A stretch of DNA of 64,000 nt, taken from NCBI RefSeq assembly GCF_001677475.2, contig NZ_CP015229.1; one strand, 5' to 3'. The notes beneath the pieces are model-generated. The model did no database searches. It was given only the letters and a program-made list of their open reading frames with translations, and had not been told where the DNA came from. Origin of the DNA: Escherichia coli (lineage in GTDB: Bacteria; Pseudomonadota; Gammaproteobacteria; Enterobacterales; Enterobacteriaceae). Positions 8,990 through 24,106 of this stretch are shown here, piece after piece. Position numbers and translations under genes: made by a program. Every line of letters begins with the position of its first letter. The first letter of the stretch is position 1.

Positions 8990-9012
8990 TGAAAAGCCAC
9001 CTTCGGGTGGCT
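8990..9012 (-). terminator. Rho-independent terminator downstream of the repressor gene
   Basis: GCCACC-TTCG-GGTGGC stem-loop followed by a U-run on the minus strand. Confidence 0.6.
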
Positions 9013-9032
9013 AATTGATGAGGAGGTAAGGG

Positions 9033-9725
9033 TTAATTGTGTCGCTTAAGGGTTTGTGACTGGCTGATTAAGACCTTTCCAAAGACCATAAACCGGTGTT
9101 CATTTTCGCTGGTAATTCCCCATTCACGGTAAATCTGGTTATCAGAAATCACCAGTAGTTTGTCAGGTATCATTTGCAGTCGTTTGACATAAATTTTATC
9201 ATCAAAACCAAATACATAGATACCATCTCCATCAAACTGATTGATACTGACATCAACGAAGATGAGATCTCCTGGCTCAATGGTTGGACACATACTGTCC
9301 CCACGAACGTTGATTACTTTAATGTGATTTGCTGGCCGTCCGCCAAACATCGATACAGCATTATCAGTTCTGTATTCAATGGCATGAATCACATCAATGA
9401 CATCACCGCCCTGGATAAGGCCATTTCCCGCACTGGCACTGATATCCAGCATTTCAATACGGAATACATCCTTCACCTGCGCAACATCCTCACTAATACT
9501 GTTTTTACATACAGTATTACTTTTGAAGTCTGAGGTAAAGAGATCAGCAATATCAACACCTAAGCTCCTGGCAATATTACTCAGGGCTTGTTCAGTGAAT
9601 TGTTTCTGCTTACCTGTTTCCAGGCGCGAGATATTTGCCGCATCCACTCCTATTGCTTCAGCGAGATCGGCGATTTTCATGTTCTTCGCTTGGCGAAGTT
9701 GTCTGACTCGATTTCCTATGTTCAT
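9033..9725 (-). CDS. CI-like repressor (N-terminal HTH, C-terminal S24/LexA-type autopeptidase)
   Basis: 230-aa ORF; HTH (MKIADLAEAIGVDAANISRLETGK) and S24 peptidase motifs (GDSM ... KRL). Confidence 0.85.
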   Translation of the reverse strand: MNIGNRVRQLRQAKNMKIADLAEAIGVDAANISRLETGKQKQFTEQALSNIARSLGVDIADLFTSDFKSNTVCKNSISEDVAQVKDVFRIEMLDISASAGNGLIQGGDVIDVIHAIEYRTDNAVSMFGGRPANHIKVINVRGDSMCPTIEPGDLIFVDVSINQFDGDGIYVFGFDDKIYVKRLQMIPDKLLVISDNQIYREWGITSENEHRFMVFGKVLISQSQTLKRHN

Positions 9726-9729
9726 GCGT

Positions 9730-9822
9730 TTATTACATTTCTTTATTGCGCGTTAAGCAAATCAACTTGCGCAAAATATTTGCGTGAAATAATATGCTCA
9801 TCACGCAATATGTGGAGGTTAT
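9730..9822. promoter_or_regulatory. Divergent promoter/operator region between cI and cro (OR-like)
   Basis: Repeated TTGCGCAA / TTGCGTGA ... TCACGCAA palindromic half-sites between divergent genes. Confidence 0.5.
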
Positions 9823-10083
9823 ATGCAATCACCATTACGGAATGTGCGTAAAGCGCACGGATTTACTTTGCAGCATGTTGCTGCTGGCGTTCAGGTCAAT
9901 CCAGCGACGCTGAGTCGTATTGAAAGACTGGAACAAATTCCATCTATCGAGCTTGCAGAACGTCTGGCCAATTTTTTTAAGGGTGAAATCAGCGAAATGC
10001 AGATTCTTTATCCGGCACGTTTTCAATCTAGCCAAAACCAGAATGGGTTTAAACCACAGGAACAGGAGATAAGCCGTGGGTAA
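9823..10083 (+). CDS. Cro-like HTH regulator (YdaS-like)
   Basis: 86-aa HTH ORF divergent from cI; SD GGAGG before ATG. Confidence 0.7.
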   Translation: MQSPLRNVRKAHGFTLQHVAAGVQVNPATLSRIERLEQIPSIELAERLANFFKGEISEMQILYPARFQSSQNQNGFKPQEQEISRG

Positions 10084-10627
10084 GCATCACTGGAAAGTGG
10101 AAAAACAGCCTGAGTGGTACGTGAAAGCTGTCAGAAAAACTATCGCGGCGTTGCCGGGGGGTTACGCTGAAGCTGCTGAGTGGCTGGATGTAACAGAGAA
10201 CGCTTTATTCAACCGCCTTCGTGCAGATGGCGATCAGATTTTCCCGCTGGGATGGGCAATGATTTTACAGCGCGCTGCTGGCACTCACTACATTGCGGAT
10301 GCTGTCGCACAGTCTGCTGGTGGGGTGTTTGTATCGCTTCCTGAAATTGAGGAAGTAGAGAACGCCGATATAAACCAGCGCCTGCTGGAAGTCATCGAAC
10401 AAATCGGGAGTTACTCAAAGCAGATTCGTTCGGCAATCGAAGATGGGGTAGTGGAGCCACACGAGCAGACAGCAATTAATGATGAGTTGTATCTGTCGAT
10501 TTCGAAGCTCCAGGAGCATGCGGCACTGGTCTACAAAATTTTCTGCGCTCCAGAAAAGAGTGACGCCCGCGAGTGTGCAGCTCCGGGCGTCGTGGCGTTT
10601 TGTGTCTGTGGAGAAACTAACGCATGA
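10076..10627 (+). CDS. YdaT-like protein (CII-position regulator of Rac-type immunity regions)
   Basis: 183-aa ORF overlapping the cro-like gene; GTG start with SD AGGAG; position and size match racR-ydaS-ydaT arrangement. Confidence 0.55.
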   Translation: MGKHHWKVEKQPEWYVKAVRKTIAALPGGYAEAAEWLDVTENALFNRLRADGDQIFPLGWAMILQRAAGTHYIADAVAQSAGGVFVSLPEIEEVENADINQRLLEVIEQIGSYSKQIRSAIEDGVVEPHEQTAINDELYLSISKLQEHAALVYKIFCAPEKSDARECAAPGVVAFCVCGETNA

Positions 10628-10772
10628 ACAGTTTAACGGCAAATAACCGTTTGTCGCAACAGCTGGTGGTCAGCGTCTCTGAACACCTGTTGTTACGGCA
10701 TGAATGCAGATTACCAAATCACCAGGCTGTAAGTAACCACAGAGAACTTTACCTGACTGTGGGGGGCGAGTT

Positions 10773-10952
10773 GTGCAGGAACTTAACCGCTGGTTTCGTG
10801 ACGGAAGAGGGCTTTATGTTCATGTTATTCGTTGGGAACCAGAAACACAGCGCGTTATCTATCTTCGCAAAGACTACCCGCATGAGTGCTTTAGTCCTTT
10901 GTGGAAATTCAGGCGTGATTTTGTTGAGTGTGACGGACCACCAACACATTGA
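10773..10952 (+). CDS. Hypothetical 59-aa protein (GTG start), upstream of a terminator
   Basis: GTG preceded by GGGGGG; ORF MQELNRWFRDGRGLYVHVIRWEPETQRV...; below the track length cutoff; hand-translated. Confidence 0.3.
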   Translation: MQELNRWFRDGRGLYVHVIRWEPETQRVIYLRKDYPHECFSPLWKFRRDFVECDGPPTH

Positions 10953-11037
10953 TTCTGCCATTCCGGGACGTTACACTGTTCAGGCACCTTATAAAACGGG
11001 TGCCGGGCGTGGAAACCCGGAATTCACCAAAGCGCAC

Positions 11038-11060
11038 AACCGCGCTCTTGCGGTTTTTTT
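11038..11060 (+). terminator. Rho-independent terminator (tR1-like) containing a boxA-like CGCTCTT
   Basis: AACCGC-GCTCTT-GCGGTT stem followed by TTTTTTTG. Confidence 0.5.
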
Positions 11061-11229
11061 GTGTCATGAGCAGCATTACGCCCAAATTATGGTGGGGCGT
11101 GCAGGGCCAACTTCGGTTGGGCCGGGTTCTTTGGTGACCGGTATTTCCACCCCTGTACGTCTCACCACCAATAAGGTCGTGGAAAGCCTTGGTGGTGAGT
11201 TATTAAAAATCACCAAAGAGGCTGCCATC

Positions 11230-11775
11230 ATGGCTACGATCCCAACCCTCACTCAACCTGAAATTGCCATCGTTGATGGTCAGGTTGTTACTTCATCCCT
11301 GGCTGTTGCCAACTTCTTCTCCAAACGTCATGACGATGTACTGAAAAAGATCCGCACGCTTGAATGCTCAGCATCATTCACTGCCCGCAATTTTTCGGTG
11401 AGTGATTACACTGATTGCACAGGTCGCAAACTTCATTGCTACCAAATCACACGCGACGGTTTTGCGTTTCTTGCTATGGGTTTCACGGGTAAACGTGCTG
11501 CCCAGTTCAAAGAGGCATATATCAATGCCTTTAACCAGATGGAGAAACAGCTTTCAAAGCCCGCTGTACCGAGCGACGTTGCACATAACGCCAGCGTTCT
11601 CTGTTCCTACATTTCATCAATTCATCAGGTCTGGCTGCAGCAGCTTTATCCTATGTTGGCAAAAGCCGAATCTCCGCTGGCTGTTAGCTTATATGATTAT
11701 ATTAATGATGCTTCGGCGCTGGCCTGCCTCATAAATTTGTCGCTGAACCCTTCAGAGGTAAGGGGGCGCAAATGA
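11230..11775 (+). CDS. Rha-family phage regulatory protein / antirepressor-like
   Basis: C-terminal part of track ORF 10624..11775; start set at MATIPTLTQPEIAIVDGQVV with SD AAAGAGG; Rha-like N-terminus. Confidence 0.6.
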   Translation: MATIPTLTQPEIAIVDGQVVTSSLAVANFFSKRHDDVLKKIRTLECSASFTARNFSVSDYTDCTGRKLHCYQITRDGFAFLAMGFTGKRAAQFKEAYINAFNQMEKQLSKPAVPSDVAHNASVLCSYISSIHQVWLQQLYPMLAKAESPLAVSLYDYINDASALACLINLSLNPSEVRGRK

Positions 11776-11996
11776 TCCGGAATATTTTCAAACGTTTTAC
11801 CAATCAGACTTTCCGTTGTCCTCGTCCGGGTCAGTGGTACACCACGCCTGCAGGGCATGTTCTACGTGTTAGCCTGGTTGACCGTGAATGTCAGAAGGTG
11901 GTTTGTGAACCGCTGGGCCGTAATTACCGCGTCAGTATGCCGCTTATAGCCTTTTGCTCCGGAAAAAACATGAAGCATCTCGGAGGTGCAGCATGA
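11772..11996 (+). CDS. Hypothetical small phage protein (74 aa)
   Basis: ATGA overlaps with both neighbours, suggesting translational coupling. Confidence 0.4.
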   Translation: MIRNIFKRFTNQTFRCPRPGQWYTTPAGHVLRVSLVDRECQKVVCEPLGRNYRVSMPLIAFCSGKNMKHLGGAA

Positions 11997-12811
11997 GTAT
12001 GGAGCTGATGGTTAAAGCGATGAAAATTCGAGTGGGTAATCCATTGCGAAAACTGGTTCTGATCAAGCTGGCTGATAATGCCAGCGATCAGGGTGAGTGC
12101 TGGCCCAGCTACCAGCATATTGCTGACCAGTGCGAGATTAGCAAACGTTCTGTGATGAATCATATTGCGGCCCTTTGTGATTCCGGGCTGGTAAAAAAAG
12201 TCACCCGGAAAGGTGAAAAAGGTAACTCAAGTAATATCTATCTCCTTCATCTTGATGGTGCAGGAGATTCACTAGGGGGTAGTGCAAATAATTCACTATC
12301 TGGTGCAGCAAATTCACCAGGTAGTGCAGGAGTTGCACCAGGGGGTGGTGCAGGAGATTCACCCAGAACCAGTCACTCTTTTGAACCAGTCAAAGAACCA
12401 GTCAATGAACCAATAGCTGTTGGTGCATCTGCTGATGAGTCTGTGCGAGTTCGTTCAAACCGACCGGAATACTCTCCGGAGTTTGAGCAGGCATGGCTGG
12501 CATACCCCAAACGTGCTGGTGGCAATTCAAAATCTGCAGCCTTCAAAGCCTGGAAAGCCCGTTTGAATGAGGGGGTAAAACCCGAAACCATGCTGGAAGG
12601 TGTGAAACGCTACGCGGGCTGGGTATCTGCGATGGGTAACAGCGGCACACAATTTGTGAAACAGGCTGTCACGTTCTTTGGTCCGGATCGTCATTTCGAA
12701 GAATCCTGGGAAGTTCCTGCGGTATCTGCAGCCAGACGCGAGGACCCGTACTTCAAAGCCAGTTACGACAACGTGGACTACAGCCAGATCCCGGCAGGAT
12801 TCAGGGGGTAA
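11993..12811 (+). CDS. Replication initiator, O-like (N-terminal HTH)
   Basis: Start at MSMELMVKAMK with SD GGAGGTG; N-terminal winged-helix; internal iteron-like DNA repeats. Confidence 0.6.
   Translation: MSMELMVKAMKIRVGNPLRKLVLIKLADNASDQGECWPSYQHIADQCEISKRSVMNHIAALCDSGLVKKVTRKGEKGNSSNIYLLHLDGAGDSLGGSANNSLSGAANSPGSAGVAPGGGAGDSPRTSHSFEPVKEPVNEPIAVGASADESVRVRSNRPEYSPEFEQAWLAYPKRAGGNSKSAAFKAWKARLNEGVKPETMLEGVKRYAGWVSAMGNSGTQFVKQAVTFFGPDRHFEESWEVPAVSAARREDPYFKASYDNVDYSQIPAGFRG
12250..12420. repeat. Iteron-like direct repeats inside the O-like gene (putative ori)
   Basis: About five imperfect ~18-21 bp repeats (GGTGCAGGAGATTCAC-like) followed by three GAACCAGTCA repeats, analogous to lambda ori within O. 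Confidence 0.45.
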
Positions 12812-12813
12812 TC

Positions 12814-13302
12814 ATGAGTCTTTTGAATGAAGTTCAGAAATTCATTGAAGCCCATCCGGGGTGTACTTCCGGAGACATTGCAGATGCTTTTGCAGGTTAC
12901 TCACGGCAGCGCGTTCTGCAGTCAGCAAGCAAGTTACGTCAGAGTGGGCGTGTGGCTCACCGTTGTGAAGGAGATACACGCAGACATTTCCCGCGCCTGA
13001 CTGAGAGAGCGCAGGAGCCGGAACCACAACCAGTTCGTGAAACCAGACCTGTGCGCAATTTCTATGTCGGCACTAACGATCCCCGGGTAATTTTGTGCCT
13101 GACCCGCCAGGCTGAAGAACTGGAGTCCAGGGGCTTATACCGTCGTGCTGCAACCGTGTGGATGGCGGCATTCCGTGAAAGCCACTCCCAGTCAGAACGA
13201 AACAATTTTCTGGCGCGCCGTGAGCGGTGCTTACGGAAAAGCAGCAAGCGCGCTGTATCGGGTGATGAGTGGTATCTGTCAGGGAATTACGTGGGGGCTT
13301 AA
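12814..13302 (+). CDS. PerC-family (Pch-like) transcriptional activator candidate
   Basis: 162-aa ORF with C-terminal LESRGLYRRAATVWMAAF resembling the PerC signature; recalled, not searched. Confidence 0.4.
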   Translation: MSLLNEVQKFIEAHPGCTSGDIADAFAGYSRQRVLQSASKLRQSGRVAHRCEGDTRRHFPRLTERAQEPEPQPVRETRPVRNFYVGTNDPRVILCLTRQAEELESRGLYRRAATVWMAAFRESHSQSERNNFLARRERCLRKSSKRAVSGDEWYLSGNYVGA

Positions 13303-13955
13303 TGAGTAATAAATATTGCCAGGCGCTGGTGGAACTGCGGAACAAACCAGCCCATGAACTGAAGGAAGTGGGCGATCAGTGGCGCACGCCGGACAACATT
13401 TTCTGGGGAATTAACACCCTGTTTGGCCCGTTTGTTCTGGATCTGTTCACCGACGGTGATAACGCCAAATGTGCCGCGTATTACACGGCGGAAGACAATG
13501 CGCTGGCGCATGACTGGTCAGAACGTCTTGCGGAGCTTAAAGGTGCTGCCTTTGGTAATCCCCCATACAGCCGCGCCAGTCAGCATGAGGGGCAATACAT
13601 CACCGGCATGCGTTACATCATGAAGCATGCCAGTGCCATGCGTGATAAGGGCGGACGCTATGTTTTCCTGATCAAAGCTGCCACCAGCGAAGTGTGGTGG
13701 CCGGAAGATGCAGATCATATTGCTTTTATTCGCGGGCGTATTGGTTTTGAAGTGCCTGCCTGGTTTATCCCGAAAGACGAGAAGCAGGTGCCGACAGGCG
13801 CTTTCTTCGCTGGTGCTATTGCTGTTTTCGATAAGACCTGGAAGGGACCGGCAATCAGCTACATCGGGCGCGATGAACTTGAGGCATGTGGTGAGGCGTT
13901 TCTGGCGCAGGTTCGCCAGCAGGCAGAACGGCTGGTCAGGGAGATAGTGGCATGA
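13302..13955 (+). CDS. Phage N6-adenine DNA methyltransferase (Dam-like, orphan)
   Basis: FGNPPYS (NPPY) catalytic motif; ATG at 13302 with SD; no adjacent restriction gene. Confidence 0.75.
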   Translation: MSNKYCQALVELRNKPAHELKEVGDQWRTPDNIFWGINTLFGPFVLDLFTDGDNAKCAAYYTAEDNALAHDWSERLAELKGAAFGNPPYSRASQHEGQYITGMRYIMKHASAMRDKGGRYVFLIKAATSEVWWPEDADHIAFIRGRIGFEVPAWFIPKDEKQVPTGAFFAGAIAVFDKTWKGPAISYIGRDELEACGEAFLAQVRQQAERLVREIVA

Positions 13956-14341
13956 AGCTGATCCTGCCTTTTCCGCCCAGCGTGAACACGTACTGGCGAC
14001 ACCCCAACAAAGGGGCGTTTGCAGGTAAGAGCCTGATAAGCGCGGCGGGGCGCAAATTCCAGAGCGCGGCGTGTGCAGCAATAGTTGAGCAGTTACGTCG
14101 TCTGCCGAAACCAACGTCGGCACCTGCTTCAGTGGAGATCGTGTTGTTTCCTCCGGATAACCGGATCCGCGATCTGGACAACTATAACAAGGCGCTGTTT
14201 GACGCCCTGACCCACGCGGGTGTGTGGGAAGACGACAGTCAGGTGAAAAGAATGCTGGTGGAGTGGGGACCGGTTATCCCGGAAGGGAAGGTCGAGATCA
14301 CTATCAGTAAGTACGAGAAAACGGCGGGTGCAGCCGCCTGA
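13952..14341 (+). CDS. rusA: RusA Holliday-junction resolvase
   Basis: 129-aa ORF MKLILPFPPSVNTYW... with conserved Asp residues typical of RusA. Confidence 0.85.
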   Translation: MKLILPFPPSVNTYWRHPNKGAFAGKSLISAAGRKFQSAACAAIVEQLRRLPKPTSAPASVEIVLFPPDNRIRDLDNYNKALFDALTHAGVWEDDSQVKRMLVEWGPVIPEGKVEITISKYEKTAGAAA

Positions 14342-14360
14342 TCAAGAGGAGAAACGAAGT

Positions 14361-15203
14361 ATGAATAATCTGATGGTCATTGATGGTATTGAAGTTCGTC
14401 GTGATGCTTATGGGCGTTACAGCCTGAACGATCTGCATCGGGCTGCTGTTGCATCTGGTGCAAATGCCAGAACTAAGGAGCCGGGAAAGTTTCTTTCCAG
14501 CCAACAGATTACTGAGCTGGTTCAGGAATTGATCGATACCCAAAATTTGGGTGTCGGTTCATTCAATGAAACTACCCAAAATTTGGGTAGTAAACCAGTA
14601 AGTAAAATAGAAGGGCGGAATGGAGGAACGTATGTCTGCAAGGAACTGGTGTATGCCTATGCAATGTGGATCAGCCCGTCATTCCATCTGAAGGTGATCC
14701 GTACTTTCGATATGGTAACCAGCACACCGGAAAAATTATCCGGGCAGGCTGCTGACAAGATGCAGGCTGGCGTGATCCTGCTGGACTTTATGCGCCGGGA
14801 ATTAAACCTGTCTAACTCATCAGTGCTTGGAGCCTGTCAGAAGCTTCAGGAGGCTGTTGGCTTACCGAATCTGGCACCGCGCTATGCCATTGATGCTCCT
14901 GCTGACGCGCCTGATGGCTCAAGTCGCCCCACGCTGTCGCTGAGTGCACTGCTGAAACAGTATGGTATCCGCCTGACGGCTAATCAGGCATATCACCAGA
15001 TGGTGAAGCTGGGGATCGTTGAACAACGCGAACGATACAGCCGTACCGCGATTAACAACATCAAAAAATTCTGGTCGCTGACGGCGAAAGGCTGCATGTT
15101 CGGCAAGAACATCACCAGTCCTGCAAATCCGCGCGAGACGCAGCCGCATTTCTTCGAATCCCGATTCCCTGAGCTGTTAAAGCTGCTCGATACCGTTCAT
15201 TGA
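14361..15203 (+). CDS. KilA-N domain protein (antirepressor-like)
   Basis: N-terminus MNNLMVIDGIEVRRDAYGRYSLNDLHRA is a KilA-N signature; start trimmed to ATG with SD AGAGGAG. Confidence 0.65.
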   Translation: MNNLMVIDGIEVRRDAYGRYSLNDLHRAAVASGANARTKEPGKFLSSQQITELVQELIDTQNLGVGSFNETTQNLGSKPVSKIEGRNGGTYVCKELVYAYAMWISPSFHLKVIRTFDMVTSTPEKLSGQAADKMQAGVILLDFMRRELNLSNSSVLGACQKLQEAVGLPNLAPRYAIDAPADAPDGSSRPTLSLSALLKQYGIRLTANQAYHQMVKLGIVEQRERYSRTAINNIKKFWSLTAKGCMFGKNITSPANPRETQPHFFESRFPELLKLLDTVH

Positions 15204-15204
15204 G

Positions 15205-16200
15205 GTGACCGTGAGAGCACTACTGACCCCTGAAATTGCCCCGCGTATGGGGATCGTATTGTTCAGGCCAGGTTCAGAGCTGATGCCCCTGTTTATGCAG
15301 GGGCGTGTCCTGCTGGAGCCTGAGCCGGAACGTTATTCATCTTTCGCCAGTGGTGCCGTTCCGGCGGCATCACAACCGCTGGCGGATGATCCTGCCGTTC
15401 GGGCCGTGTTCCGCAATGAGGCAGTGATCCGTCGTGCTGGTGGCGTGGAATGTCTTGAAAGCTGGTTACTTCGTGAAAAGGGCTGTCAGTGGCCTCATTC
15501 CGACTGGCACAGCGAGAACATGACCACAATGCGACACGCGCCGGGCGCAATCCGTCTGTGTTGGCACTGCGATAACCAGTTGCGTGATCAGTTCACGGAA
15601 CGGCTGGAATCAATGGCAACGGATAACTGTGCCCGCTGGGTGTTATCTGTCGTGCGTCGGGATCTCGGTTTTGATGACAGTCACGTAGTGACAATGCCGG
15701 AACTGTGCTGGTGGCTGGTTCGTAATGACCTGGCGGATGCCTTACCGGAAAGTGCAGCCCGTAAGGCACTGAGATTACCGAAGCCTGTTGTGCCGTCTGT
15801 CACCCGGGAAAGTGACCTTGTGCCTTCGGTTCCTGCCACCAGCATCATCCAGGATAAAGCGAAAAAGGTGCTGGCGCTGAAAGTGGATCCGGAGTCGCCG
15901 GAGTCTTTTATGTTACGCCCAAAACGTCGCCGCTGGGTTAATGAAAAGTACACGCGCTGGGTTAAGACACAGCCGTGTGCATGTTGTGGAAAGCCCGCTG
16001 ATGATCCCCACCACCTGATAGGCCACGGTCAGGGTGGAATGGGTACAAAAGCGCATGACCTTTTTGTGTTGCCTTTGTGCAGAAAGCATCACGACGAGCT
16101 GCATGCGAATACCGTGGCATTTGAAGAGAATTATGGCTCCCAGCTGGAGCTGATATTTCGTTTTATCGATCGTGCGCTGGCAATAGGCGTACTGGCGTAA
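15205..16200 (+). CDS. DUF968-type prophage protein (YdfU-like), Cys/His-rich C-terminus
   Basis: 331-aa ORF upstream of Q as in Qin; C-terminal CACCGKPADDPHHLIGHG...CRKHHDELH. Confidence 0.55.
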   Translation: MTVRALLTPEIAPRMGIVLFRPGSELMPLFMQGRVLLEPEPERYSSFASGAVPAASQPLADDPAVRAVFRNEAVIRRAGGVECLESWLLREKGCQWPHSDWHSENMTTMRHAPGAIRLCWHCDNQLRDQFTERLESMATDNCARWVLSVVRRDLGFDDSHVVTMPELCWWLVRNDLADALPESAARKALRLPKPVVPSVTRESDLVPSVPATSIIQDKAKKVLALKVDPESPESFMLRPKRRRWVNEKYTRWVKTQPCACCGKPADDPHHLIGHGQGGMGTKAHDLFVLPLCRKHHDELHANTVAFEENYGSQLELIFRFIDRALAIGVLA

Positions 16201-16213
16201 GTGGAGAACGAGC

Positions 16214-16966
16214 ATGAACCTTGAAGCTTTACCAAAATATTACTCCCCAAAATCGCCAAAATTGAGTGATGACGCACCGGCGACAGGCTCGGGTGGTTTA
16301 ACAATAACAGATGTGATGGCTGCGCAGGGGATGGTGCAGTCGAAAGCTCCGCTTGGTTTTGCCTTATTCCTGGCAAAAGTTGGTGTTCAGGATCCTCAGT
16401 TTGCGATTGAAGGTCTGCTCAATTACGCGATGGCAATGGATAATCCGACATTGAACAAATTGAGTGAAGAAATCCGGTTACAGATCATCCCTTACCTTGT
16501 GAATTTTGCCTTTGCTGATTATTCCAGGTCTGCGGCAAGTAAGGCTCGCTGTGAGTATTGTGCTGGTACTGGATTTCATAATGTATTGCGCGAAGTGGTG
16601 AAACACTCCAGAAGCGGGGAATCTGTTATCAAGGAAGAGTGGGTGAAGGAACTATGTCAGCATTGCCATGGTAAGGGAGAAGTCAGCACAGCGTGCAGAG
16701 GGTGTAAGGGGAAAGGTATTGTCCTGGATGAAAAAAGAACCCGGCTTCATAGCACGCCTGTTTATAAGGTTTGTGGGCGTTGCAATGGAAACCGGTTTAG
16801 TCGTTTACCAACGACACTGGCGCGGTGTCATGTCCAGAAGCTGGTACCAGACCTGACGGATTATCAGTGGTACAAAGGATATGCAGATGTCATTGATAAA
16901 CTGGTTACAAAGTGCTGGCAGGAAGAAGCATATGCTGAGGTGCAATTAAGAAAAGTGACGAGATAA
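16214..16966 (+). CDS. Late-gene antiterminator Q (zinc-binding)
   Basis: 250-aa ORF with multiple CxxC motifs (CEYCAGTG, CQHCHGKG, CRGCKGKG, CGRCNGN); upstream of the lysis cassette. Confidence 0.75.
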   Translation: MNLEALPKYYSPKSPKLSDDAPATGSGGLTITDVMAAQGMVQSKAPLGFALFLAKVGVQDPQFAIEGLLNYAMAMDNPTLNKLSEEIRLQIIPYLVNFAFADYSRSAASKARCEYCAGTGFHNVLREVVKHSRSGESVIKEEWVKELCQHCHGKGEVSTACRGCKGKGIVLDEKRTRLHSTPVYKVCGRCNGNRFSRLPTTLARCHVQKLVPDLTDYQWYKGYADVIDKLVTKCWQEEAYAEVQLRKVTR

Positions 16967-17727
16967 ATGATTTTCACCGAACGATGGCGACATAACGATT
17001 GTATTTTCTAAGGAAACGTGCAAAGAGTTTTCCAATGATGAGCCTTATATGCATACCGGTGGAAAATATCAATAAGCCGCGCAGAGTGGTTTTTTTGTGG
17101 ACATAAACTTTGTGCAGAACGGTAACCATTATGGTTGCCGTGAATGCAGTTTTTTTACATTGCTGGCTTTTTTAGATTTGTGTTAGTTATTGATATTAAC
17201 AAGAAGGGGAAAAGACATGCTAAAACGGCAGGATATGAAGGAAACGGTTATGCGTGAATGTTCCAGTGTGATTAACCATATCATCTGGAGAAGCCATCCT
17301 GATGCAGGGAAGAGGTAACAGTAACGCGCATCAATCAGGCTGCAAATAAATGGCTTACGCCGGAAATCTGGCTATCGATGTATTACCGGTTTGTTACCCA
17401 TGAAGAAAATTAAGGTGATAACGAAACTGATTTTATAGGTGTCTTGTCAGAGTGTTGCGATGAAACTTGTGTTGGCAGTGCAGGGAAAACAGTAGGATGA
17501 AAATTATAAATTGCTTTAAATTAGCTTGATTTTCCTCATGTTATGAGATATTTGTCTTATATTGCTGGTTAATTATGAAAATTTTTGTAAATCTACAGCA
17601 ATAAAATCCATATTAATTAAAGCACTAGATGCGTTTCTGATTTGTGCATGAAACATACATATCATAATGATTAATTGCATCTATAATTACAGATACAGCA
17701 TTGTGCTGTTAAAAAACTGGAGTCCCC

Positions 17728-18792: not shown

Positions 18793-19081
18793 CTTTAAAT
18801 GGGGCAATGGTAATGTTGAATCTCATCCCGGGACTCATGTCTGTTAACTTATTATTTAGCTGGTGACTTGGTTATTTGCCTGATGTTTAAAATGTTTTCT
18901 TCCAGTACAATGTCCCTAAACACAATGAGTCTGCTTATTATATTATTAGCAGAGCTATTACGGCCAAAGTACAGCATAAGCTTTTAAAGCCAGTCAACCA
19001 GTCATCAAGACAGACGGGGTTATTCATAAAAACTCTCCATGTGTGATCCGATGGGGCCTGAAATTAAAGCTTTAATATAGC

Positions 19082-19294
19082 TCATGAAAGGTAAACATTG
19101 GCAGCTGAAGGGCCACGCAGAGCATTTATCCGGCAAAATTCCACGCGTAATCCGGTGGTAATTTCTTCTGCATCGCGGAGATTGAGCGCTGAAACATGAA
19201 GCTGGACATCGATACGACCATCGGATGGGGTGATAAGACCCTTGCCGCTTTTGCCGTCAAAGGTTTTGACAATTCCTGTCATTTTACGGGACAA
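19082..19294 (-). CDS. Cold-shock protein, CspF/CspH-like
   Basis: 70-aa [30 protein letters not shown]...; cold-shock domain; non-ATG start as in K-12 cspH/cspF. Confidence 0.85.
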
Positions 19295-19594
19295 AAAAAT
19301 TCCTTAATACTGATAACTTGGCGCACTATACACACGTTCCTGAAGAAAGCTATAGTTTTTTGATGGGGTTGAAGATGGCTGGATGTCTAAAATAAACATT
19401 GCTTCATATGTTCAACTATGCGTTAATGATTGCGTCGGTTTGAAGAACAGACGATATACGAAGTAGTTTACTAAAGCAGTTCTCATTTCAGGTGTTATTC
19501 ACTTATTCCTTCTTTGAGTCTCTCCAATTAAGTACGAAGTCGTTTCTGTTATACAAGCCATTTATGCCGAAAGGCTCAAGTTAAGGAATGTAGA

Positions 19595-19810
19595 ATGTCA
19601 AATAAAATGACTGGTTTAGTAAAATGGTTTAACGCTGATAAAGGTTTTGGCTTTATTTCTCCTGTTGATGGTAGTAAAGATGTGTTTGTGCATTTTTCTG
19701 CGATTCAGAATGATAATTTTCGAACCTTATTTGAAGGTCAAAAGGTTACCTTCTCTGTAGAGAGTGGTGCTAAAGGTCCTGCAGCAGCAAATGTCATAAT
19801 TACTGATTAA
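19595..19810 (+). CDS. cspB: Cold-shock protein CspB
   Basis: 71-aa [44 protein letters not shown]...; near-identical to recalled CspB; divergent from the cspF-like gene as in Qin. Confidence 0.9.
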
Positions 19811-20092
19811 AATTAATAGTTTGTCTGTATACGATAACGAAGAAGGCTGATGCCTGAGTGGAGATACAGACAGAGTGGTGAATATTGGATCTCTTTAATA
19901 AATAGTAAGGAGATCCAATACATGAAACAATGGCCAGCATATTTGGCAATAACTTAATCAGGAAAAGTATGCTAACCATTGTGGTGAAGTGCAGGTTTGC
20001 TGCATGAATAGTTTTACAGCAGAAGCTAACTGCTAGCATAGCAAAACAAAGTGCGTAAGTGGATGACTCCCACAAAAAGCACCACAATATTA

Positions 20093-20115
20093 AACCCGCT
20101 CAGGCGGGTTTTTTA
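20093..20115 (+). terminator. Rho-independent terminator
   Basis: CCCGC-TCAG-GCGGG followed by TTTTTTATT. Confidence 0.65.
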
Positions 20116-20173
20116 TTATCTGCTTTAAATATGTTATTAAAATATAAAAAATACTTGTTACGAATAAAATCAA

Positions 20174-20344
20174 TCAAGCTACAGCTTTAAGATTTGTCTG
20201 GAATACTTTGTTGCAATGAGGGCAGATCAAAAGAGCACCTTTTTGTACTCTTGAAAAACTGTGTTCTGACTCTTGGGTGCAGTTTGGGCAGGAACATTTA
20301 ACGAGATAATTACGGCGTGATTTTGAGTCTTTACGTTCTGACAT
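20174..20344 (-). CDS. Small zinc-ribbon protein (two CxxC pairs), function unknown
   Basis: MSERKDSKSRRNYLVKCSCPNCTQ...CPHCNKVF; start at internal ATG with SD AGGA; a TGTATA-N8-TATACA palindrome lies just upstream. Confidence 0.45.
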   Translation of the reverse strand: MSERKDSKSRRNYLVKCSCPNCTQESEHSFSRVQKGALLICPHCNKVFQTNLKAVA

Positions 20345-20562
20345 AGGCTTTTCCTGTATAAATGGCCGTATACAGTACACTAAATATGAAAACATATCTC
20401 GTATTATTATTTAATATATGATTTTCTTTTAAAATAATTACCCACATTTTTAATGTGTCTGTTTTTTAGCGCCGTTGAGAACAACGTTTGCTATAAAAAC
20501 TAACCCATAGACTCCGATCTTTTCAAACATATTGCACCATCTGTGTACATCGGGGTGAGGAT

Positions 20563-20778
20563 ATGAAATCAATGGATAAGTTAACAACAGGTATCGCCTA
20601 TGGCACATCGGCTGGTAATGCTGGTTTCTGGGCATTGCAGTTACTCGATAAAGTAACTCCGTCACAGTGGGCTGCAATCGGTGTGCTGGGTAGTCTGGTT
20701 TTTGGCCTGCTGACATATCTGACAAACCTTTATTTCAAGATTAAAGAAGACAGGCGTAAGGTTGCGAGAAGAGAGTAA
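20563..20778 (+). CDS. Holin (phage 21 S / EssD-EssQ class II type)
   Basis: 71-aa ORF with two TM segments and charged C-terminus ([13 protein letters not shown]). Confidence 0.85.
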
Positions 20779-20782
20779 TCCA

Positions 20783-21334
20783 ATGACTCAAGACTATGAA
20801 CTGGTTGTGAAAGGAGTTCGCAATTTTGAGAATAAAGTGGCGGTAACTGTAGCCTTACGGGACAAAAAACACTTTGACGGTGAAATTTTTGACCTGGACA
20901 TCTCGCTGGACCGTGTTGAAGGTGCCGCGCTGGAGTTTTATGAGGCAGCAGCCAGAAGGAGCATCAGACAGGTCTTCCTGGATGTTGCTGCCGGGTTATG
21001 TGAAGGGGATGAGCAGTCGCCGGAAAAGCGCCCCATAATTTTAGAGGCGCAGAATGTGTGGATAACCTACAAAGGAAAGCTACCGGGAAGAATTACTGGT
21101 TCTCTGAAGACGCCACCGACGGCATTGCGGTCAGAAAAAGATGATATTGAATCGCCCATTGAAAAACTGGAGGGCAGCGTCGCTGATCTGAATAAAAAAT
21201 TGTCGGTGCTGATTCCTTCTGAAGATGAAAAAAAACGCCGCGATGAGCAGTTTGCGGCGTTTTACGATTATTGCATTGAAGTTACTCGCAGGAATTTTGT
21301 GAAGATTTTTGAGGAGGGTAAATCTCTTCAGTAA
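20783..21334 (+). CDS. Hypothetical protein between holin and endolysin
   Basis: 184 aa from ATG at 20783 (MTQDYELVVKGV...); no recognised motif; possibly YdfR-position gene. Confidence 0.4.
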   Translation: MTQDYELVVKGVRNFENKVAVTVALRDKKHFDGEIFDLDISLDRVEGAALEFYEAAARRSIRQVFLDVAAGLCEGDEQSPEKRPIILEAQNVWITYKGKLPGRITGSLKTPPTALRSEKDDIESPIEKLEGSVADLNKKLSVLIPSEDEKKRRDEQFAAFYDYCIEVTRRNFVKIFEEGKSLQ

Positions 21335-21542
21335 GCTTATTGGCGGACGCTGCAATTAATTCAGGAAGGTCCGCAAGGTCATCTGTCAGTGGATATGATG
21401 AAAAATCGGCGGCAGTTCTGTTAAGAAGCGCTTTAACTAATTCCTTTTCCTTCTCCGGCAACAAGTTGATTAGAGCTACGACTGCTTGCCTGAGTGCGAT
21501 TAAATCAGCAAAAGTTTGTTTTGGTAGATTTGTGTAATCCAT
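21282..21542 (-). CDS. Hypothetical 86-aa protein, convergent and 3'-overlapping the preceding ORF
   Basis: Minus-strand ATG preceded by SD GAGGCG; non-repetitive protein-like composition. Confidence 0.35.
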   Translation of the reverse strand: MDYTNLPKQTFADLIALRQAVVALINLLPEKEKELVKALLNRTAADFSSYPLTDDLADLPELIAASANKLTEEIYPPQKSSQNSCE

Positions 21543-21655
21543 AGTCGCCTCGGTGTTTATCAGATTGACATCCTCCTCCCGCCAGTGCCCATCACTGGTG
21601 AGGTAAGATTTAACATATCCGGGGATTTGAAGCCGATAAATCCTGATAAATATCC

Positions 21656-22683
<1,028 letters not shown>

Positions 22684-23045
22684 ATTAATATTAAATCGGA
22701 TTATTTTTAGCGCTGAATGTGAAATTTAAATAAAAAGGACTCTTCCATGAGTCAAAATCCTTGAAATCTTAAGGGTAAGATAAAAGGTCATTAGACAGAA
22801 TGACACGTTTTATTAATAAATAAAGCTATTGTTTCATTCGTGTGTTTTTCTTTACAAAAGTAATCCTTGCTATGGTTGGTTAATCATGCGTTAATGGTGT
22901 TCTGGTTTGTTACAAAATTATCTGAAGCAGTCATTGTTATAATTTTATTATTTGTACCTCTTGAGATTTCCTTGTTGGTTTTTCTCTCTGATATTTTTTT
23001 CGGACCATTCTGCCCAAGGGCTAACTTCTTCAAAAGGTAATAATG

Positions 23046-23258
23046 ATGTCTAACAAAATGACTGGTTTAGTGAAATGGTTTAACCCTGAAAAAGGTTTTG
23101 GTTTCATCACGCCGAAAGATGGTAGCAAAGATGTGTTTGTCCATTTCTCAGCTATTCAGAGCAACGATTTCAAAACGTTAACTGAGAATCAGGAAGTCGA
23201 ATTTGGTATTGAGAACGGACCTAAAGGCCCCGCGGCTGTTCATGTTGTGGCACTTTGA
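23046..23258 (+). CDS. cspI: Cold-shock protein CspI
   Basis: [70 protein letters not shown] matches recalled CspI. Confidence 0.9.
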
Positions 23259-23461
23259 GGTAGAAAATATTACAAACCATATTCACTTTAGATGCCCGTG
23301 TTGCCATGGTTCTCAGTATAGAACATCATCTTTTGATGTTTCTGACAGGAATCCTTTCGGGGCAAAATGTATCTTTTGTAAATCAATGATGATTACATTT
23401 GATAATATTTCACAATACTTAAATGTTAGCCGTCTGTCGTTAGATTTAAGAAAGTGAAAAT

Positions 23462-23486
23462 GAAGGCTCCTTCGGGAGCTTTTTTG
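23462..23486 (+). terminator. Rho-independent terminator after cspI
   Basis: GGCTCC-TTCG-GGAGC followed by TTTTTTG. Confidence 0.7.
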
Positions 23487-23490
23487 CTTA

Positions 23491-23760
23491 GTGTCTAGTC
23501 GATGGATACTCACATATTACGGTAACATTATGAAAAAAATAATAGTTTTTTTTAACTCTGAACCAGCAATGGTAGTGCCAGTGATGACCGGAGTTAACAC
23601 CATCATGCGTGAATATCCAAATGGCGAAACAACACACCTCACTGTAATGGCTGCAGGGTTTCCATCTCTGACCGGAGATCATAAAGTCATTTATGTAGCA
23701 GCGGATCGACATGTAACTTCAGAAGAAATTCTGGAAGCAGCAATGAGACTCTTGAATTGA
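23491..23760 (+). CDS. Hypothetical small protein
   Basis: 89-codon ORF; start uncertain; no recognised motif. Confidence 0.3.
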   Translation: MSSRWILTYYGNIMKKIIVFFNSEPAMVVPVMTGVNTIMREYPNGETTHLTVMAAGFPSLTGDHKVIYVAADRHVTSEEILEAAMRLLN

Positions 23761-23932
23761 TTTGATTCTAATGCATTGATAATAAATGATAATCATCTTT
23801 ATCTGTTTGTGTGAAATTTAGACCGTCGTATGTTGATTATTGCGATGTTTCATCTTATCTTTTATACGTTTGCTCCATATAATTGACACTACTGTGTACC
23901 AGGAAAGTCATAACAGACTAAAAGAGGAAATG

Positions 23933-24106
23933 ATGAACATTGAAGAGTTAAAAACAAAAACAGAAGCAGATATTTCTGAATATATAACAAAAAAAATCAT
24001 TGAGCTTAAGAAAAAGACCGGGAAAGAAGTTACCAGTATCCAGTTTACTGCACGGGAAAAAATGACTGGTCTTGAAAGCTATGATATCAAGATTGATTTA
24101 ATCTAG
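23933..24106 (+). CDS. gnsB: GnsA/GnsB-family small protein
   Basis: MNIEELKTKTEADISEYITKKIIELKKKTGKEVTSIQFTAREKMTGLESYDIKIDLI resembles GnsB; SD AGAGGA upstream. Confidence 0.75.
   Translation: MNIEELKTKTEADISEYITKKIIELKKKTGKEVTSIQFTAREKMTGLESYDIKIDLI

What the first reader, a model, noticed from the sequence alone, without database searches (positions are those of the whole stretch)
12814..13302. PerC/Pch-like activator candidate in the early region
The C-terminal LESRGLYRRAATVWMAAF segment resembles the PerC signature. Prophage-encoded PerC homologues can regulate chromosomal virulence loci, so this could mediate phage-host regulatory cross-talk.
Basis: inference. Interest (0 to 1): 0.4.

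Follow-up and report, generated by a model that had tools for sequence, protein, structure and literature searches.

The report
Known prophage gene yfdN, PerC-family
The flagged ORF is real and does belong to the PerC family, but it is the common prophage gene yfdN, already annotated this way in about half of all complete E. coli genomes, and nothing here shows that it controls virulence genes.

Summary
The ORF at 12814-13302 (+) is real and encodes 162 aa containing LESRGLYRRAATVWMAAF. The match covers only residues 98-151, about 60% of the PerC profile.

The protein is 96% identical to E. coli K-12 YfdN. An identical protein is annotated by PGAP as "PerC family transcriptional regulator". 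The gene occurs in 2667 of 5426 complete E. coli genomes and in 49 phage records.

Unlike PerC and PchA-E (single domain, 89-104 aa), it has two modules: a predicted N-terminal winged helix and a C-terminal PerC/ANR-type, TPR-like three-helix unit. It sits in the early-right operon of a lambda-like prophage, translationally coupled to a replication-organiser gene upstream and a Dam methylase downstream. This position is kept in homologues down to 25% identity.

A LEE role is unsupported. At least 1970 carrier genomes lack LEE, and published PerC homologues activate, ignore or repress LEE.

The most likely function is a DNA-tethered modulator of nucleoprotein complexes serving the phage's own early programme; this is inferred, not shown. 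Verdict: already known, low interest.

The parts
12814..13302 (+). yfdN-type CDS, 162 aa plus stop; PerC family transcriptional regulator (PGAP name)
   Evidence: ORF list and sequence. 100% DNA identity to annotated yfdN / 'PerC family transcriptional regulator' genes. 96% protein identity to K-12 YfdN b2357. phrog_1324 matches over the full length, E 3e-78.
12814..12999 (+). N-terminal winged-helix module (residues 1-62; H3-13, H19-25, H31-44, beta hairpin 47-60); basic, pI 9.8
13000..13080 (+). Variable, predicted-disordered linker (residues 63-89), Pro/Glu-rich
   Evidence: pLDDT about 47. Length and sequence are not conserved in the 40-member alignment.
13081..13242 (+).
13243..13299 (+). 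C-terminal tail (residues 144-162) with the family motif W-x-L-x-G-x-Y-x-G; replaces the longer C-terminal half of PerC/Pch
   Evidence: Alignment A1, G161 near-invariant. Alignment with PerC/Pch shows that the roughly 30-residue segment before their FRNY end is absent here. Low pLDDT.
12804..12816 (+). Translation initiation region: GGGGG (12804-12808), stop of the upstream gene (TAA 12809-12811), ATG 12814-12816
   Evidence: Read directly from the sequence. The same junction is present in L001 and SfV.
11993..12811 (+). Upstream, translationally coupled gene: replication-organiser/O-like protein (N-terminal HTH_36/DnaD_N winged helix, low-complexity linker, C-terminal domain ending in IPAGFRG)
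   Evidence: Pfam HTH_36 E 2.9e-11; DnaD_N below cutoff. SfV orf39 is annotated 'replication protein'. PGAP start taken. Homologous organisers (HTH_36 + Phg_2220_C) precede YfdN-like genes in 7 distant loci; an eighth, L017, shows only Phg_2220_C.
13302..13955 (+). Downstream, overlapping gene (TAATG): phage Dam-type N6-adenine DNA methyltransferase
   Evidence: Pfam PF05869 E 9.7e-46. PADLOC MTase_II E 1e-156. PGAP annotation.

Best explanation
What it is (near-certain): the yfdN-type early gene of a complete lambda-like prophage integrated between yjjG and prfC.

The product is a basic (pI 9.9) 162-aa protein with four parts: (1) an N-terminal winged helix, residues 1-62; (2) a disordered linker; (3) a PerC/ANR-type, TPR-like three-helix unit, residues 90-143; and (4) a short conserved tail.

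No sigma-70-like promoter or convincing terminator separates it from the cro-side early promoter. It is start/stop-coupled to the replication-organiser gene upstream and to the dam gene downstream. It should therefore be made when the prophage is induced or infects, not as an independently expressed lysogenic-conversion gene.

How it most likely works (inferred): the winged helix tethers the protein to DNA. The PerC-type helical unit makes protein-protein contacts with nucleoid or regulatory proteins. This is the activity shown for its relatives: Pch displaces H-NS/StpA from promoter DNA, and ANR proteins bind H-NS, Ler and AraC-family activators. On this reading YfdN remodels nucleoprotein complexes for the phage's own early programme (replication / nin region / late switch). 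Any effect on host loci such as LEE would be incidental and allele-specific.

Shown here: sequence, family match, predicted fold, operon position, conserved synteny. Inferred: DNA binding, partner proteins, targets.
For: Identity: 100% DNA matches annotated yfdN / PerC family. 96% identity to K-12 YfdN with the same yfdO-yfdN-yfdM order.

Family: PF06069 above its cutoff. All 40 two-domain homologues hit PF06069. Reciprocal PHROG hits.

Operon: start/stop coupling. Only 3 weak promoter-like sites in 9000-17500, none next to the gene. yfdN rises 12.6-fold together with neighbouring prophage genes under NO stress in CFT073 (PMC5320621).

Mechanistic precedent: Pch acts as an H-NS anti-silencer (PMC4764244). 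ANR proteins bind H-NS and Ler (PMC10148876). The query and PerC/Pch all align weakly to the same part of the ANR profile.
Against: No experiment addresses YfdN itself. DNA binding by the winged helix is not shown, and some of the best structural neighbours use this fold to bind proteins rather than DNA (T4 MotA NTD, RPA32C, ESCRT-II). Only 54 of 90 PerC profile positions are matched, and the C-terminal half of PerC/Pch is missing, so Pch-like activity may not carry over. The ANR match is below NCBIfam's cutoff. TPR/MIT-like matches for a 55-residue helical unit are generic. The tight, conserved linkage to replication genes fits a replication-linked role at least as naturally as a transcriptional one.
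Confidence: 0.4

Rival explanations
1. Replication-module accessory. YfdN works with the upstream replisome-organiser protein at the phage origin, for example by docking on its conserved C-terminal IPxGFRG tail through the TPR-like unit, or by bridging to host helicase or loader.
For: In 8 of 12 loci with distant homologues (25-35% identity) the gene directly follows an organiser gene: HTH_36/Phg_2220_C in 7, Phg_2220_C only in L017. The junction is a 4-nt ATGA/GTGA overlap in 7 of these and a short gap in L024. L014 is similar, but its upstream protein was not domain-annotated. No lambda-P, DnaC or DnaB-type gene is annotated between cro and Q in this prophage. The organisers share an invariant-looking C-terminal tail despite 25-40% overall identity. 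TPR-like folds often bind terminal peptides (general knowledge). PchE also lies just after primase and SSB genes in Sakai Sp7.
Against: One homologue (P0149, 41% identity) directly follows a lambda-P-family gene, so YfdN is not simply a substitute for P and does not need the IPxGFRG organiser. Two other homologues lie in non-replication contexts: after RecT, and between a type-I-like MTase/S pair and Q. No interaction could be modelled or tested here. Gene overlaps are common throughout phage operons.
Confidence: 0.2
2. Ren-like early protein. YfdN is the positional and partly homologous counterpart of lambda Ren, protecting the phage from exclusion or abortive infection by resident prophages (Rex-type).
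For: It is the first gene after the replication genes, which is the position of ren in lambda. In locus L026 it follows a lambda-P-family gene exactly as ren does. The N-terminal module hits the Ren PHROG (phrog_142) at E 0.007. Ren and YfdN-N both hit phrog_633 and phrog_19053 in the same profile regions. hhalign aligns residues 2-49 with Ren 2-48.
Against: hhalign probability is only 11.7% and BLASTP finds nothing, so the similarity may be no more than a shared winged-helix fold. Ren has no PerC-type module. Ren's own mechanism is unknown. PADLOC gives no defence-related hit.
Confidence: 0.12
3. Methylation-linked factor. YfdN regulates or targets the adjacent orphan DNA methyltransferase, or reads methylation state as the small winged-helix protein PapI does with Lrp at GATC sites.
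For: The gene immediately downstream is a DNA MTase in the window and in 7 distant loci, drawn from four Pfam families: PF05869, PF05063, PF02086, and a PF00145+PF02086 fusion. In L026 a PF02086 MTase lies about 2.3 kb downstream instead. Another homologue sits next to a type-I-like MTase plus S subunit. The family profile aligns to PapI over its full length at E 0.006, and one member hits Pfam FaeA.
Against: In 2H10, S88, APEC O1 and MS7163 the next gene is a LexA-family protein, not an MTase. This fits better with a variable cargo slot after yfdN. Unrelated MTase families make a conserved physical partnership unlikely. The PapI and FaeA hits are no better than hits to many other winged helices.
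Confidence: 0.08
4. One reading: a Pch-like activator that switches on chromosomal virulence loci (LEE/ler) in the host.
For: True PerC-family core with the conserved residues. PchA/B/C and PerC do activate ler (PMC5931665, PMC11773190). One group deleted K-12 yfdN from a ler::lacZ reporter strain as a possible confounder.
Against: At least 1970 of 2667 carrier genomes lack LEE, and K-12 carries the gene. The architecture and PHROG differ from all tested activators. Single-domain relatives PchD/E and PICI homologues are inactive or repress. The gene is embedded in the lytic early operon rather than in a moron position like pchA.
Confidence: 0.07

Closest known systems
E. coli K-12 YfdN (b2357, cryptic prophage CPS-53) and its phage orthologues (SfV orf40; mEp460, 2H10 and Stx2c-phage genes)
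   Same: 96% protein identity over the full length. Same local order: O-like gene, then yfdN, then methyltransferase. Same PGAP name.
   Different: K-12 is annotated with two extra N-terminal residues, and its neighbours yfdO and yfdM are truncated remnants. Here the prophage looks complete.
PerC of EPEC (pMAR2) and PchA/B/C of EHEC O157:H7
   Same: Shared core of about 50 residues: A-x2-LE-x2-G-x-YRRAA-x2-W ... R ... RR-x2-C. Identity is 32% (PerC) and 40% (PchA) over 50-56 residues. Same Pfam family.
   Different: PerC and Pch are single-domain proteins of 89-104 aa that match the whole 90-position profile at 143-149 bits (PchA, PerC). The query scores 38.9 bits on positions 5-58, lacks their C-terminal segment, and adds a winged helix and a linker. 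The PHROGs differ: 994 versus 1324. pchA lies in a late-region moron position and perC in the perABC operon, whereas this gene is in the early replication operon.
PchD, PchE and PICI-encoded PerC-like proteins (e.g. EcCIMP1_025)
   Same: PerC-family members carried by mobile elements. PchE lies just downstream of replication genes (primase, SSB) in the PICI-like Sp7. They have little, no or negative effect on LEE, which shows that family membership does not predict LEE activation.
   Different: They are single-domain proteins (PchD 89 aa, PchE 90 aa) in phrog_994, with 23-35% identity in the core.
ANR family (Aar, Rnr; NCBIfam NF033650)
   Same: The query's residues 96-142 align to ANR profile positions 5-51 of 54. 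PerC and Pch align to the same part. ANR proteins act by protein-protein binding to H-NS, Ler and AraC-type activators (PMC10148876).
   Different: The score of 24.2 bits is below the curated cutoff of 32. ANR proteins are 4-10 kDa single hairpins with no DNA-binding module.
Lambda Ren
   Same: Position directly after the replication genes. Small winged-helix-like N-terminus with weak profile similarity.
   Different: No significant pairwise similarity. Ren has no PerC-type module.
BlaI/MecI-type repressors (architecture analogue only)
   Different: There is no sequence relationship in the C-terminal module. No evidence that the PerC-type unit dimerises, and no cognate sensor-protease context.

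Membership tests
PerC (Pfam PF06069) | Profile match at or above the curated gathering score | tested here: met
   38.9 bits against a cutoff of 22.6, E 1.1e-9. All 40 two-domain homologues also match.
PerC (Pfam PF06069) | Match over the whole ~90-residue domain, including the C-terminal half | tested here: not met
   Only profile positions 5-58 of 90 are matched. PerC, PchA, PchD and PchE match positions 1-90 (PchD 6-89) at 124-153 bits. The alignment shows their ~30-residue C-terminal segment is absent here.
PerC (Pfam PF06069) | Conserved core residues (LE..G.YRRAA..W ... R ... RR..C) | tested here: met
   Eleven invariant columns shared with PerC, PchA, PchD and PchE.
PerC/Pch LEE activators (functional group: PerC, PchA/B/C) | Small single-domain protein of about 89-104 aa | tested here: not met
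   162 aa with an additional N-terminal winged helix and a linker.
PerC/Pch LEE activators (functional group: PerC, PchA/B/C) | Activates the LEE1/ler promoter | not testable with these tools
   No experiment on YfdN was found. PchD/E and PICI homologues do not activate (PMC5931665, PMC11773190). At least 1970 carrier genomes have no LEE.
PerC/Pch LEE activators (functional group: PerC, PchA/B/C) | Same remote-homology cluster as the tested activators (phrog_994) | tested here: not met
   The best PHROG is 1324 (E 3e-78); phrog_994 reaches only E 2.6e-11. PerC, PchA, PchD and PchE all have phrog_994 as best hit.
YfdN orthologous group (K-12 b2357) | High full-length identity and conserved neighbours (O-like gene upstream, methyltransferase downstream) | tested here: met
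   96% identity over 162 aa. The synteny is the same in K-12, SfV and strains 144 and 1504D004.
ANR (NCBIfam NF033650) | Profile match at or above the curated cutoff | tested here: not met
   24.2 bits against a cutoff of 32.
Ren-like exclusion proteins (phrog_142) | Significant sequence or profile similarity to lambda Ren | tested here: inconclusive
   phrog_142 E 0.007. hhalign E 0.0025 but probability 11.7%. BLASTP finds nothing. The genomic position matches.
Winged helix-turn-helix fold | H1-S1-H2-H3-S2-wing-S3 topology with close structural neighbours | tested here: met

The most novel reading that the evidence does not exclude
YfdN-type proteins may not be virulence activators at all. 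They may be a conserved 'post-replication-module' component of one lambdoid lineage: a Ren-position winged helix fused to a single TPR-like PerC unit. That unit would dock a partner peptide, for instance the invariant IPxGFRG tail of the replisome organiser encoded just upstream, or H-NS-family proteins, to couple origin activity, DNA methylation or escape from exclusion. If so, the PerC/Pch/ANR virulence regulators would be stand-alone derivatives of a phage and PICI housekeeping module.
Probability: 0.15. Interest if true: 0.45.

Novelty: already known. Interest (0 to 1): 0.15.

Why it matters
It matters little as a discovery. The gene and its family assignment are already in RefSeq for thousands of genomes, and the literature already calls yfdN the K-12 PerC homologue.

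The work does have some value as a caution and as a lead.

Caution: "PerC family" annotation on prophage early genes should not be read as "LEE or virulence activator". The yfdN type has a different architecture, sits in the lytic early operon, and is mostly found in LEE-negative strains.

Lead: about half of complete E. coli genomes carry this uncharacterised two-module protein in a conserved slot after the phage replication genes. Working out its function would also show what the PerC/ANR helical unit does in its native mobile-element setting.

Tried and rejected
(1) YfdN as a stand-in for lambda P (helicase loader). I considered this because no P, DnaC or DnaB gene is annotated in the operon. 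It is weakened because homologue P0149 directly follows a lambda-P-family gene.

(2) An obligatory partnership with the downstream methyltransferase. This is set aside. The MTases belong to four unrelated Pfam families, and the slot holds a LexA-family gene in 2H10, S88 and APEC O1. A variable cargo slot explains this better.

(3) A link to anti-phage defence. PADLOC gives only a 12.9-bit noise hit.

(4) A solved structure for the PerC core. None was found by sequence profile; the best E-value is 0.076, to ribosomal protein uS3.

(5) Using EPEC PerC as a query in the word-indexed protein search to retrieve Pch proteins returned only 3 near-identical hits. I took the Pch sequences from the Sakai genome instead.

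(6) Porter et al. 2005 (PMC543544), the paper most likely to mention yfdN-type homologues, is not held.

(7) A filamentation screen hit a 2.5-kb UTI89 fragment containing yfdN2 plus four other genes. It was not resolved to yfdN, so I did not use it as evidence.

(8) An independent promoter for lysogenic expression. No convincing site was found. SfV annotates only a predicted dam promoter inside orf40.

(9) I did not attempt complex or dimer modelling, because the structure tool returns no coordinates or PAE with which to judge an interface.

(10) I could not determine whether the window's own host carries LEE. The source strain is not identified, and only closest matches at 99.7% identity are known.

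Full report
OBSERVATION

It has a GGGGG ribosome-binding run at 12804-12808. The upstream gene stops at 12809-12811, and the ORF's own stop overlaps the next start (TAATG). The quoted LESRGLYRRAATVWMAAF is residues 103-120 (nt 13120-13173).

It is positive: PF06069 scores 38.9 bits against a gathering score of 22.6, E 1.1e-9. BLASTP against the canonical proteins gives 40% identity over 50 residues to O157 PchA (E 3e-8) and 32% over 56 residues to EPEC PerC (E 1e-7). I fetched those sequences from pMAR2 and the Sakai chromosome. A five-way alignment has eleven invariant columns: A, LE, G, RRA, W, R, R, C.

IT IS A KNOWN GENE

The DNA is 100% identical to genes that PGAP annotates as "yfdN: PerC family transcriptional regulator" (WP_021539742.1) in several complete genomes. 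A match is present in 2667 of 5426 complete E. coli genomes and in 49 phage records, including SfV (orf40, "unknown"), mEp460, 2H10 and a series of Stx2c phages. The protein is 96% identical to K-12 YfdN (b2357) of cryptic prophage CPS-53, which has the same yfdO-yfdN-yfdM order.

The large protein search returned only "PerC family transcriptional regulator" names. One paper explicitly calls yfdN "the K12 unique PerC homologue" and deleted it from a ler::lacZ reporter strain as a precaution, without reporting any effect (PMC5931665). Other mentions are lists: uncharacterised genes affecting glycogen when overexpressed, a five-gene fragment in a filamentation screen, a predicted-interactome cluster, and 12.6-fold induction together with neighbouring prophage genes under NO stress in CFT073.

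CONTEXT

In the closest genome (99.7% identity over window 1-25000) the window begins in tRNA-Leu/rsmC/holD/rimI/yjjG and then enters a prophage. The gene order is:

- integrase, then yfdR/yfdQ/yfdP on the minus strand
- a cI-like repressor (minus strand)
- a cro-like HTH protein, YmfL, and an Ash+Rha protein
- a 74-aa ORF
- an HTH_36/DnaD_N replication-organiser protein
- YfdN
- Dam, RusA, a KilA-N protein, DUF968 and the Q antiterminator
- lysis genes and lambda-type head and tail genes
- prfC at the far end

. I did not check the far side of the window (25001-64000) against that genome base by base.

The gene is thus in the early-right operon. The pattern scan finds only three weak promoter-like sites in 9000-17500, fewer than the shuffled expectation of 8.5, and none next to the gene.

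ARCHITECTURE: NOT A PLAIN PerC

The Pfam match covers only residues 98-151, which is profile positions 5-58 of 90. By contrast, PerC, PchA, PchD and PchE are 89-104-aa single-domain proteins matching essentially the whole profile at 124-153 bits.

PHROGs separates the two groups. The query is phrog_1324 (E 3e-78, full length), while the four canonical proteins are phrog_994. Weaker reciprocal hits link the two families.

An exhaustive HMMER search of 1.84 billion cluster representatives found only 104 relatives. These include about 30 full-length two-module homologues at 25-48% identity. Their alignment shows:

- a conserved N-terminal block (MSLxxxVxxFIxxNPGxT..IAxAF)
- a variable linker
- the PerC-type core
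- a tail motif W-x-L-x-G-x-Y-x-G

.

AlphaFold2 on this alignment (mean pLDDT 81) gives a winged helix at residues 1-60, a disordered stretch at 61-89, and three helices at 90-143.

The query, and more weakly PerC and Pch, align to the same part of NCBIfam's ANR profile. All are below its cutoff: 24.2 bits for the query and 13.6-18.2 for PerC/Pch, against a cutoff of 32.

CONSERVED POSITION

I looked up the genomic contexts of twelve distant homologues.

Upstream:
- Seven follow a gene for an HTH_36 + Phg_2220_C organiser, and an eighth (L017) follows a gene with Phg_2220_C only. Seven of these eight junctions are 4-nt overlaps; L024 has a short gap.
- One (P0149, 41% identity) follows a lambda-P-family gene, exactly the position of ren in lambda.
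- Two are elsewhere: one after RecT, and one between a type-I-like methylase/S pair and Q.
- One (P0155) lies at a contig end, so its upstream gene is unknown.

Downstream, the adjacent gene is a DNA methyltransferase in seven of these loci, drawn from four Pfam families: PF05869, PF05063, PF02086, and a PF00145+PF02086 fusion. In L026 a PF02086 methyltransferase lies about 2.3 kb further downstream. In 2H10, S88 and APEC O1 the next gene is a LexA-family gene instead. I read this as a variable cargo slot after yfdN rather than an obligatory partnership.

The organiser proteins share a striking C-terminal tail, IPxGFRG, despite 25-40% overall identity.

The N-terminal module gives weak hits to the Ren PHROG (E 0.007). 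It also hits two further PHROGs that Ren hits in the same profile regions. However, hhalign probability is only 11.7% and BLASTP finds nothing.

DOES IT REGULATE LEE?

Nothing here says so. A conserved LEE segment (escV-escN) is found in 697 of 5426 genomes, against 2667 for the yfdN type. At least 1970 carriers therefore lack LEE, and K-12 is one of them.

Among tested family members:
- PchA/B/C raise ler::lacZ at least 4-fold. PchE raises it less than 2-fold and PchD not at all (PMC5931665).
- PICI-encoded homologues from EDL933 and CFT073 are reported to have no effect, and EcCIMP1_025 represses LEE1 (PMC11773190).
- pchA sits in a late-region moron position, unlike this gene.

Whether the window's own host has LEE could not be determined.

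MECHANISM

What is shown: sequence, family match, predicted folds, operon coupling and conserved synteny.

What is inferred: the winged helix binds DNA, and the PerC-type unit contacts other proteins. Two precedents support the second point. Pch relieves H-NS/StpA/Hha/YdgT silencing and reduces H-NS binding at LEE1 in vivo and in vitro (PMC4764244). ANR proteins bind H-NS, Ler and AraC-type activators (PMC10148876).

I therefore favour a DNA-tethered modulator of nucleoprotein complexes acting in the phage's early programme (confidence 0.4). The rivals are:
- a replication-module accessory, 0.2
- a Ren-like anti-exclusion protein, 0.12
- a methylation-linked factor, 0.08

PADLOC gives no defence link.

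VERDICT

The gene and its annotation are already known. The two-module architecture and the conserved slot after the replication genes are modest additions. Interest is low (0.15).

The most novel reading still open is that yfdN-type proteins are a housekeeping module of lambdoid phages and PICIs, from which the stand-alone PerC/Pch/ANR regulators derive. I give it a probability of about 0.15 and an interest of about 0.45 if true.

Noticed in passing
window 12788-12808 (end of the upstream gene); also L011, L012, L014, L016, L017, L021, L022, L024: The replication-organiser proteins encoded just upstream of YfdN-like genes end in a conserved tail, I/L-P-x-(x)-G-F-R-G/Q/S (IPAGFRG here). Their overall identity is only 25-40%. 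This looks like a short docking motif for an unknown partner.
   Followed up: partly
window 13302-13955 and loci L010, L011, L012, L016, L021, L022, L024: The slot right after the YfdN-like gene holds DNA methyltransferases from four different Pfam families (Dam PF05869, MT-A70 PF05063, MethyltransfD12 PF02086, and a C5+D12 fusion). In some phages it holds a LexA-family gene instead. This appears to be a hot spot for swapping orphan methylases.
   Followed up: partly
window about 9800-17000 (early-right operon): No lambda-P, DnaC or DnaB-type helicase or loader gene is annotated between the cro-like gene and Q. The only recognisable replication gene is the HTH_36/DnaD_N organiser at 11993-12811. 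How this phage type recruits a helicase is not evident.
   Followed up: partly
L004 31103-32044 (E. coli O157:H7 Sakai, element Sp7): pchE lies directly after a primase gene, a small ORF and an SSB-like gene in a PICI-like element (integrase, primase, capsid and terminase genes). PerC-family genes therefore sit next to replication genes in two different kinds of mobile element.
   Followed up: no
window 10624-11775 (+): A 383-aa ORF combines an Ash domain (residues 117-213) and a Rha domain (residues 223-308) behind about 116 residues with no family match. PGAP annotates it as one 'Rha family phage regulatory protein'.
   Followed up: no
window about 12250-12480 (middle of the organiser gene): The organiser has a long Gly/Ser/Ala/Asn/Pro-rich low-complexity linker. 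The protein is 272 aa here and in SfV but 280 aa in strain 144 (L001), which suggests length polymorphism. I did not locate the indel.
   Followed up: no
window about 19000-24100 (coordinates inferred from L002): In the closest genome, the region between Q and the terminase genes carries a cluster of cold-shock-type and small stress genes (cspF, cspB, cspI, ymcF, ynfN, gnsB, ydfK further on), as in the Qin/Rac-type prophage regions of K-12.
   Followed up: no
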